A DNA stretch of 64,000 nt from Eledone cirrhosa (taxonomy: Eukaryota), in the NCBI GenBank assembly GCA_964016885.1, contig OZ024749.1:28396001-28460000 (forward strand), written 5' to 3'. The position numbers were made by a program, and so were the translations under genes. Shown in pieces: positions 23,167 to 24,051 of the stretch. Position 1 is the first letter of the stretch. Every line of letters begins with the position of its first letter. The notes below the pieces were generated by a model. That model did not search any database, had not been told where the DNA came from, and saw only the letters and a program-made list of their open reading frames with translations.

Positions 23167-23462
23167 ATAAAAACAAATAACGAAACGAAATTAAATTTCG
23201 TTTCGTTTGTAACTCACTTTTGTATGACTGACGCTTAAACAATTAAGTTAAAAATGTACATCCACATATGTATACTGAAATACTAGTATGCATATGAATA
23301 CACACACGTGTACATATGTAGATGTACCGAGTTTTTTCACTGGACACTTTACTGTGAGTGTCCAGCTATTCTGTATGTAAACACACAGACAAACCGGTTT
23401 TTAGAGTCATACTGGTTTTCGAGGAAACACCTTTCCTCTATTCTCCAGAAAGCCAGACAAGG

Positions 23463-23507
23463 AATATTGGACTAGTTTCGATGTTGTTACATCTCATCAG
23501 CAATATT
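23463..23507 (-). ncRNA. minimal type I hammerhead ribozyme
   Basis: AAUAUUG-CUGAUGA-GAUG(uaacaa)CAUC-GAAA-CUAG-UC^CAAUAUU. Perfect core, 7-bp stem I, palindromic stem III. Confidence 0.92.
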
Positions 23508-23928
23508 TACCTATCTTCCGGCCTTTCTAGAGAATCGTAAAAGCACATATCGTTATATGCTTTTTCTATGAAAATTAGTAGTGGGCAGACTAATTTGCAT
23601 AGAGCGTGAGTACGTACCGGTTCAGCGGAGACGATAAAAACAAATAACGAAACGAAATTAAATTTCGTTTCGTTTGTAACTCACTTTTGTATGACTGACG
23701 CTTAAACAATTAAGTTAAAAATGTACATCCACATATGTATACTGAAATACTAGTATGCATATGAATACACACACGTGTACATATGTAGATGTACCGAGTT
23801 TTTCACTGGACACTTTACTGTGAGTGTCCAGCTATTCTGTATGTAAACACACAGACAAACCGGTTTTTAGAGTCATACTGGTTTTCGAGGAAACACCTTT
23901 CCTCTATTCTCCAGAAAGCCAGACAAGG

Positions 23929-23973
23929 AATATTGGACTAGTTTCGATGTTGTTACATCTCATCAGCAATATT
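23929..23973 (-). ncRNA. minimal type I hammerhead ribozyme, second copy
   Basis: Identical to 23463-23507, 466 nt away. Confidence 0.92.
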
Positions 23974-24051
23974 TACCTATCTTCCGGCCTTTCTAGAGAA
24001 TCGTAAAAGCACATATCGTTATATGCTTTTTCTATGAAAATTAGAATTGTT

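What the first reader, a model, noticed from the sequence alone, without database searches (positions are those of the whole stretch)
23167..24044. Tandem 467-bp unit with perfect minimal hammerheads 466 nt apart
Seen: two near-identical units, each with CUGAUGA/GAAA-CUAG-UC and a 7-bp stem I on the minus strand. Known: ACUAGU-type stem III hammerheads work as dimers and release monomer RNAs that circularise in retrozymes. Inference: a transcript would be cut at 23935/23936 and 23469/23470, releasing a 466-nt monomer. Near identity of the units suggests a young, possibly active copy.
Basis: partly seen in the sequence, partly recalled or inferred. Interest (0 to 1): 0.78.

Follow-up and report, generated by a model that had tools for sequence, protein, structure and literature searches.

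The report
Two-armed Penelope-type hammerhead retrozyme
A 466-base non-coding repeat with a predicted self-cutting RNA motif sits at over 1,600 sites in this animal genome, mostly as two back-to-back arms with the paired ends typical of Penelope jumping genes, and A-to-G changes shared by both arms suggest that each insertion was likely copied from one small RNA circle, which has not been observed.

Summary
In detail: two identical type I hammerheads lie 466 nt apart on the minus strand, in 1.88 tandem units inside (TA)n. The family is large: at least 1,621 exact tail/(TA)n junctions in G000. Of 165 loci classed, 116 are two head-to-head arms, one ending at unit position 467 and one at 392-399. 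One locus has two short ends; none has two long ends. An ORF-bearing Penelope-like element (PLE) of this genome shows the same pairing (5 of 5 loci). Variants shared by both arms of a locus are skewed to A>G on the ribozyme strand (29 vs 8 T>C); single-unit variants are not (48 vs 55). Best reading: a non-autonomous non-LTR retrozyme inserted by PLE target-primed reverse transcription, likely from one ADAR-edited monomeric RNA circle. The class is known; I did not find the insertion-end or editing evidence in print. Not shown: expression, cleavage, circles, the partner PLE. The register and cut-site truncation tests were null. The scan noted retrozyme-like elements in other genomes before, not this one.

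The parts
23167..23633 (-). Full 467-bp unit, 3'-most unit of the long arm; ends at the tail end (unit position 467) against (TA)n
   Evidence: 1,621 exact tail/ATAT junctions in G000
23634..24044 (-). 5'-truncated upstream unit (unit positions 56-467), one indel from the full unit
23926..23978 (-). Type I hammerhead, copy 1; predicted cut after C17 at 23936
23460..23512 (-). Type I hammerhead, copy 2; predicted cut after C17 at 23470
23470..23935 (-). Predicted 466-nt monomer RNA (cut to cut); circular MFE -156.5 kcal/mol against -95.4 +/- 5.4 for 60 shuffles
   Evidence: prediction only
23167..23235 (-). 69-nt tail (unit 399-467) found at one end of an insertion only; holds a 13-bp hairpin (23179-23207) followed by a U run
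24045..24053 (+). 9-nt inverted second arm (unit 390-398) ending at the family's short end; abuts the 5' end of the long arm
   Evidence: the same end has 670 exact junctions with TA in G000
21996..23166 (.). (TA)n target tract, tail side
24054..24660 (.). (TA)n target tract, short-arm side
20213..21995 (+). Neighbour, separate insertion: broken 3' part of an autonomous-type PLE ('PLE-A': RT C-terminus, GIY-YIG-like endonuclease, degenerate hammerhead) with its own short inverted arm; candidate mobiliser, not shown
24661..25897 (-). Neighbour, separate element: LINE reverse transcriptase fragment (RVT_1, E 3e-32) that stops at the TA tract; the label RTE-like is recalled

Best explanation
This is a non-coding tandem element with a conserved hammerhead motif, found at over 1,600 (TA)n sites mostly as two head-to-head arms with one long and one short 3' end, and it is likely a non-autonomous retrozyme inserted by a Penelope-like reverse transcriptase, probably from a single monomeric RNA circle. 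Steps: (1) inferred: tandem transcripts self-cleave, probably as hammerhead dimers through the ACUAGU palindrome, and give a 466-nt monomer that a host ligase circularises, as shown for axolotl and mussel retrozymes; (2) inferred from the A>G skew: the structured RNA is sometimes A-to-I edited; (3) ends shown, enzyme inferred: a PLE protein nicks both strands of (TA)n and primes one cDNA at unit 467 and the other at 393/398; (4) shown: each arm runs a variable length through cut sites and the two 5' ends join with 0-3 nt overlap or gap in most cases; (5) shown for long arrays: later duplication builds higher-order repeats.
For: Ends (165 loci, the window plus C1): 116 long+short, 1 short+short (L229), 0 long+long, 29 with one visible arm, 10 with a damaged end, 9 unreadable. 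In the set chosen by the ribozyme alone, 20 of 26 are long+short and none has like ends. Autonomous PLE-A shows the same pairing in 5 of 5 two-arm loci with both ends visible. Craig 2021 (PMC8557442, passages) lists partial tandems, an inverted 5'-truncated copy, a one-sided tail and microsatellite bias as PLE hallmarks. Frangieh 2024 (PMC11167929, main text) shows a PLE protein extending both target strands from two internal start sites that bound the tail. Arm length: 108 of 142 arms exceed what a cleaved linear monomer allows, and 55 of 142 cross two cut sites. One template: a locus's own second arm is closer than the best other locus in 28 of 46 loci, tied in 11, farther in 7. Editing: variants shared by both arms are A>G 29 vs T>C 8 (p 0.0004), distinct sites 21 vs 7 (p 0.008); private variants 48 vs 55; all locus-shared variants in fresh loci 11 vs 3 (p 0.03). 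3' G neighbour in 9 of 23 (p 0.01). L089 carries six A>G changes within 54 nt in all four covering units on both arms. Ribozyme: 6 of 16 pairs change on both sides across 14 hand-picked variants from two related families, with an invariant core. L093 has a 45-bp target duplication.
Against: No expression, cleavage or circle is shown. No partner PLE was found: no sequence similarity of the unit to the PLE-A 3' UTR or to the flanks of 30 GIY-YIG loci beyond nested retrozyme copies, and no ORF sits between the tail and the unit array in the tail-anchored loci. The A>G skew weakens when all shared variants are counted by distinct site (23 vs 13, p 0.10), in the earlier set alone (24 vs 13, p 0.07) and for both-arm variants in fresh loci (10 vs 3, p 0.055); the 5' U preference is not significant (p 0.15). 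Several subsets were tested without correction. Shared edits could be inherited from a homogenised source array. Frangieh 2024 found hammerhead cleavage dispensable for PLE insertion in vitro and no strand difference in start site. Li 2026 (bioRxiv 2026.07.22.740005) saw cleavage in only 1 of 9 retrozyme dimers. A common subfamily has GUU at the cut site. Covariation reflects few independent events. One short+short locus breaks the pairing rule.
Confidence: 0.7

Rival explanations
1. Same non-autonomous PLE-mobilised element, but the template is an uncleaved multimeric read-through transcript; the hammerhead is not needed for insertion and circles, if any, are a side product.
For: Frangieh 2024: unprocessed RNA was the dominant substrate in vitro. 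The helix III is weak. Multi-unit arms and the paired ends fit this model equally well. Long homogeneous arrays exist as sources.
Against: New edits on a multimer should fall in single units, yet private variants show no A>G excess (48 vs 55) while both-arm variants do (29 vs 8). No shared register of unit variants between arms: 80 observed vs 74.3 expected of 154. The core and stems are conserved across two families.
Confidence: 0.2
2. Solo PLE terminal repeats or a satellite amplified at DNA level by unequal crossover and inverted duplication, with the hammerhead as a passenger (the local-amplification route discussed by Li 2026).
For: Long arrays do show higher-order repeats (J047 with at least 52 units, J039, J103). 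No RNA evidence exists.
Against: At least 1,621 dispersed identical 3' junctions, fixed unlike ends with scattered 5' truncations, a target duplication and a strand-asymmetric A>G skew are not expected from DNA-level amplification.
Confidence: 0.05
3. Linear cleaved monomers are the template and the RT jumps from the 5' end back to the 3' end of the same monomer at the cut site, which mimics a circle.
For: Fits shared edits and multi-unit arms.
Against: 5' truncations do not pile up at the cut site: 9 of 142 within 155-175 against 6.4 expected. The hammerhead variants across the cut site are mostly intact.
Confidence: 0.05

Closest known systems
Animal non-LTR retrozymes (Cervera and de la Pena 2020, PMC7229834; axolotl HHR_Amex1 / newt satellite type)
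   Same: Non-coding tandem repeat, GC under 50%, one type I hammerhead per unit, 1-bp helix III with a palindromic tetraloop, highly self-paired predicted monomer, thousands of copies, PLEs in the same genome.
   Different: Unit of 466 nt is slightly above their 150-450 bp. The head-to-head arms, paired ends, one-sided tail and (TA)n targeting are not in that paper's main text (0 hits for 'inverted' and 'microsatellite'; supplements not seen). Expression and circles are shown there, not here.
EN+ Penelope-like elements (Craig 2021 PMC8557442; Frangieh 2024 PMC11167929)
   Same: Partial tandems, 5' truncation, inverted 5'-truncated arm, tail at one end only, microsatellite bias, hammerhead upstream of the 3' end.
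   Different: No ORF. The tail is 69-74 nt against 30-40. The ribozyme is canonical, not the min-HHR. The strict long+short pairing differs from the in vitro result of no strand preference.
Vertebrate retrozymes as non-autonomous PLE derivatives (Li, Clavereau, Pollet 2026, bioRxiv 10.64898/2026.07.22.740005)
   Same: Same conclusion of PLE dependence.
   Different: Their evidence is co-occurrence and terminal-repeat homology. Here no homologous PLE repeat was found, and the evidence is insertion-end anatomy and substitution skew.
Non-autonomous Chlamys elements such as MRC1 (Craig 2021, passage)
   Same: Non-coding PLE derivatives with multicopy head-to-tail insertions.
   Different: Most Chlamys lack canonical hammerheads and resemble their autonomous partners at the 3' end; no such partner was found here.

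Membership tests
Non-LTR retrozyme | Tandem short repeats with a type I hammerhead in each unit | tested here: met
Non-LTR retrozyme | No protein coding | tested here: met
   Longest stop-to-stop frames within the units are 50-62 aa; no tRNA head
Non-LTR retrozyme | Low GC, highly self-paired monomer | tested here: met
   GC 36%, 67% paired, z -11.4 against 60 shuffles (prediction)
Non-LTR retrozyme | Dispersed multi-copy family with retrotransposition marks | tested here: met
Non-LTR retrozyme | Self-cleavage as monomer or dimer | not testable with these tools
   Only structure and covariation
Non-LTR retrozyme | Expressed as linear and circular monomer RNA | not testable with these tools
   No run on record as RNA; indirect support from A>G skew
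Penelope-like element (insertion signature) | Inverted 5'-truncated arm and one-sided tail | tested here: met
   116 of 165 loci
Penelope-like element (insertion signature) | Microsatellite target bias | tested here: met
   TA flanks at most arm ends; the tail- and short-end-anchored sets were selected for TA at one end
Autonomous Penelope-like element | RT plus GIY-YIG ORF | tested here: not met
   No ORF in the unit; arrays of the unit fill the tail-anchored insertions
Non-autonomous derivative of a named PLE family | Sequence homology to the partner's terminal repeat | tested here: inconclusive
   None to PLE-A or 30 GIY-YIG loci; most PLE families of the genome were not sampled
PLE minimal hammerhead (Cervera 2014, PMC4209133) | Helix II 7-8 bp, helix I 4-5 bp, no helix III | tested here: not met
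   Helix II 5 bp, helix I 7 bp plus extension, palindromic loop III

The most novel reading that the evidence does not exclude
Each insertion is made by one PLE reverse transcriptase dimer that holds a single ADAR-edited RNA circle and primes both target strands from two fixed sites 69-74 nt apart, copying round the circle several times. The genome then records rolling-circle target-primed reverse transcription and writes RNA edits into DNA, which would be the first direct genomic trace of the circle as the retrozyme intermediate.
Probability: 0.4. Interest if true: 0.8.

Novelty: new member of a known kind. Interest (0 to 1): 0.6.

Why it matters
Two points about animal retrozymes are proposed but not shown in the papers I read: which retrotransposon moves them, and whether the circular RNA is the template. 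This family carries the PLE insertion signature at over a thousand sites and a substitution skew that points to one edited monomer per insertion. It gives a young 466-nt substrate with mapped start sites, and candidate intact PLE ORFs in the same genome, so both questions become testable in an existing in vitro PLE assay. The 116:1:0 pairing of ends also constrains how PLE proteins prime the two target strands.

Tried and rejected
DNA search of G000 with the unit found nothing, not even the window, because common words are skipped; patterns were used instead. Sequencing runs: no RNA holder listed. Contigs of two other organisms' runs held one low-depth unit each (X4 looping back 465 nt, X8); a tandem or contamination gives the same, so I did not use them. 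Register test between arms: null. Pile-up of 5' ends at the cut site: none. Arm-length correlation: rho 0.13, p 0.38, 50 loci. Partner search: PLE-A UTR, generalised hammerhead patterns (the loci read were retrozyme families 1 and 2), PF01541 loci; none matched. PLE-A has no Pfam hit on direct scan and only weak RT hits in PDB; its label rests and recalled motifs. Rfam miRNA hits are microsatellite artefacts. The first hammerhead alignment had two rows in the wrong place or orientation and was discarded. The bacterial promoter scan is not informative. Target duplications are mostly unreadable in (TA)n: 8 loci had shared flank words, one clear. An apparent second short+short locus (L300) was two separate insertions. 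Dropped before counts: L085 and L289 (duplicates), L057 (overlap), L056 (two broken pieces), J047 (both ends outside), second copy in L231.

Full report
Observation. The window holds a 467-bp unit at 23167-23633 and a 411-bp copy at 23634-24044, differing by one indel, between two (TA)n tracts. On the minus strand each carries the same type I hammerhead, with C17 at 23936 and 23470, so the predicted monomer is 466 nt. Rfam HH9 matches at E 3.4e-8 but below its gathering score. Across 14 hand-picked variants from this family and a related one the core is invariant, 93.7% of cells pair and 6 of 16 pairs change on both sides. These rows are related, so this is a few events, not 14. Helix III is one pair plus a palindromic loop, the type that needs dimers in axolotl (PMC7229834; I read parts 2-3, the Discussion and passages).

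Family. G000 has 1,633 exact matches to the 31-nt core (control 0), 1,621 exact junctions of the unit's 3' end with ATAT and 670 of the shorter end with TA. Looser patterns give 23,681 matches (control 0) and 16,943 (control 19); the listed ones are this family and a related 420-500-nt family. All loci that I fetched for this family come from the first listed hits on C1, so the sample is not genome-wide.

Anatomy. Of 165 loci classed, 116 have two arms joined at their 5' ends, one ending at unit 464-467 and one at 392-399. One has two short ends (L229) and none has two long ends. 17 show only a long-end arm (the window among them under this strict rule; one search counts its 9-nt arm), 12 only a short-end arm, 10 have a damaged end and 9 were unreadable. 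The anchored sets fix one end by selection, but in the ribozyme-anchored set 20 of 26 are long+short with no like pair. In one search the short end was 398 in 39 loci, 393 in 23, and 394 or 397 in one each. Arm junctions have 0-3 nt of overlap or gap in 40 of 61 cases. 5' ends are scattered and not enriched at the cut site. L093 has a 45-bp target duplication.

Link to PLEs. Craig 2021 (PMC8557442, passages) describes partial tandems, an inverted 5'-truncated copy, a tail at one end and microsatellite bias for PLEs. Frangieh 2024 (PMC11167929, parts 1-2 of 4) shows that a PLE protein cuts and extends both strands and starts at two internal RNA sites that bound the tail. In this genome the PLE next to the finding (20213-21995) belongs to a young family: the 150 best matches are 97-100% identical, and L153 has an open frame of 1,273 codons. 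Its protein resembles RT/GIY-YIG clusters, though Pfam gave no direct hit. Its two-arm loci show the same long+short rule in 5 of 5 cases. It shares no detectable sequence with the unit, and no other partner was found. The mobiliser is therefore inferred as a class, not named.

Template. 108 of 142 arms are longer than a cleaved linear monomer could give from these start sites, and 55 cross two cut sites. The two arms of a locus are alike: median 0.45% against 0.9% to the best other locus, closer in 28 of 46, tied in 11, farther in 7; gene conversion could add to this. Unit variants are not shared in register between arms. Variants carried by all covering units of a locus and seen on both arms are skewed on the ribozyme strand: A>G 29, T>C 8 (p 0.0004); by distinct site 21 vs 7 (p 0.008); single-unit variants 48 vs 55 (Fisher p 0.01). 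In loci fetched after the idea arose, all locus-shared variants were 11 vs 3 (p 0.03) and both-arm ones 10 vs 3 (p 0.055). A 3' G follows 9 of 23 sites (p 0.01); the 5' U bias is not significant. That ADAR prefers a 3' G is recalled knowledge. L089 has six A>G changes in 54 nt in all four covering units on both arms. Edits copied into every unit of both arms fit one monomer copied repeatedly, most simply a circle. They could also come from a source array homogenised after an earlier edit. Long arrays have higher-order repeats, so later DNA-level growth is real.

What is not shown. No RNA run was on record, so expression, cleavage and circles are untested. Li 2026 (bioRxiv 10.64898/2026.07.22.740005; parts 1-3 of 5 and a term search, supplements not seen) found cleavage in 1 of 9 dimers, and Frangieh 2024 found cleavage unnecessary for insertion in vitro. 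Both temper the ribozyme step.

Comparison and novelty. The element meets every testable feature of animal non-LTR retrozymes and fails the ORF test for an autonomous PLE and the min-HHR definition (PMC4209133, passages). PLE mobilisation from circles was proposed in 2020 and supported in 2026 by co-occurrence and repeat homology. I did not find two-armed paired ends or inherited editing reported for retrozymes: 'retrozyme' + 'head-to-head' gave 0 papers; a six-term search gave 2 reviews, listing only; among the 10 papers listed for retrozyme/A-to-I/ADAR, only one cancer review held all three terms, listing only; term counts in the two key papers were zero or incidental. The library lacks most subscription papers, and I did not see the supplements, including the life-cycle figure S9 of PMC7229834, which may bear on this. 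Taxon-word searches rested on my guess of the animal group and found no description of this family. Earlier scan notes held no look-alike sequence and nothing in this genome, but two analogous elements in other genomes.

Verdict. Real, young, high-copy retrozyme of a known class, with unusually clear PLE insertion anatomy and moderate evidence for an edited monomer template. Interest 0.6.

Noticed in passing
window 20213-21995 (+); L153: Young high-copy PLE family with intact-looking ORF copies, a degenerate hammerhead, head-to-head arms and a one-sided tail of about 45-60 nt in (TA)n; the window copy has in-frame stops.
   Followed up: partly
L122:4280-7001; L199-L228: Second retrozyme family (420-500-nt unit, GUA cut site, same ACUAGU loop, homologous tail and head-to-head arrays); it fills the listed hits of the 16,943 matches. 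End pairing not counted.
   Followed up: partly
L049:5500-7000; L190, L191: Third tandem hammerhead family, 310-nt unit, ACGCGU palindromic loop, also head-to-head; its stem II resembles that of a likely PLE terminal repeat family (L056, L064, L074).
   Followed up: no
all fetched loci: About 30 clusters of hammerhead-like motifs, many ending in (TA)n and nested in each other's TA tracts; (TA)n tracts act as landing pads for several elements.
   Followed up: no
G000:C1:95644000-95667999 (L047, L161, L162): Array of at least 52 units with higher-order repeats: a retrozyme turned satellite.
   Followed up: partly
L229:1412-2156: The one locus with two short ends; it carries both A>G and T>C changes in a stem, shared by both arms.
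   Followed up: no
window 23398-23473, run X22: In a DNA run, 113 reads from one start carry a cluster of T>C changes (A>G on the ribozyme strand): possibly one genomic copy made from a hyper-edited RNA.
   Followed up: no
window 23739-23755, run X5: One contig at depth 3 has seven A>G changes on the plus strand; run type is not on record and it may be error, but it would fit editing of antisense or fold-back transcripts.
   Followed up: no
window 24661-25897 (-): LINE RT fragment cut off at the TA tract; its 3' part does not resume at 21995.
   Followed up: no
window 1080-6320, 9701-20135, 42904-47895: (TA/CA)n tracts of 5-10 kb with strong strand skew.
   Followed up: no
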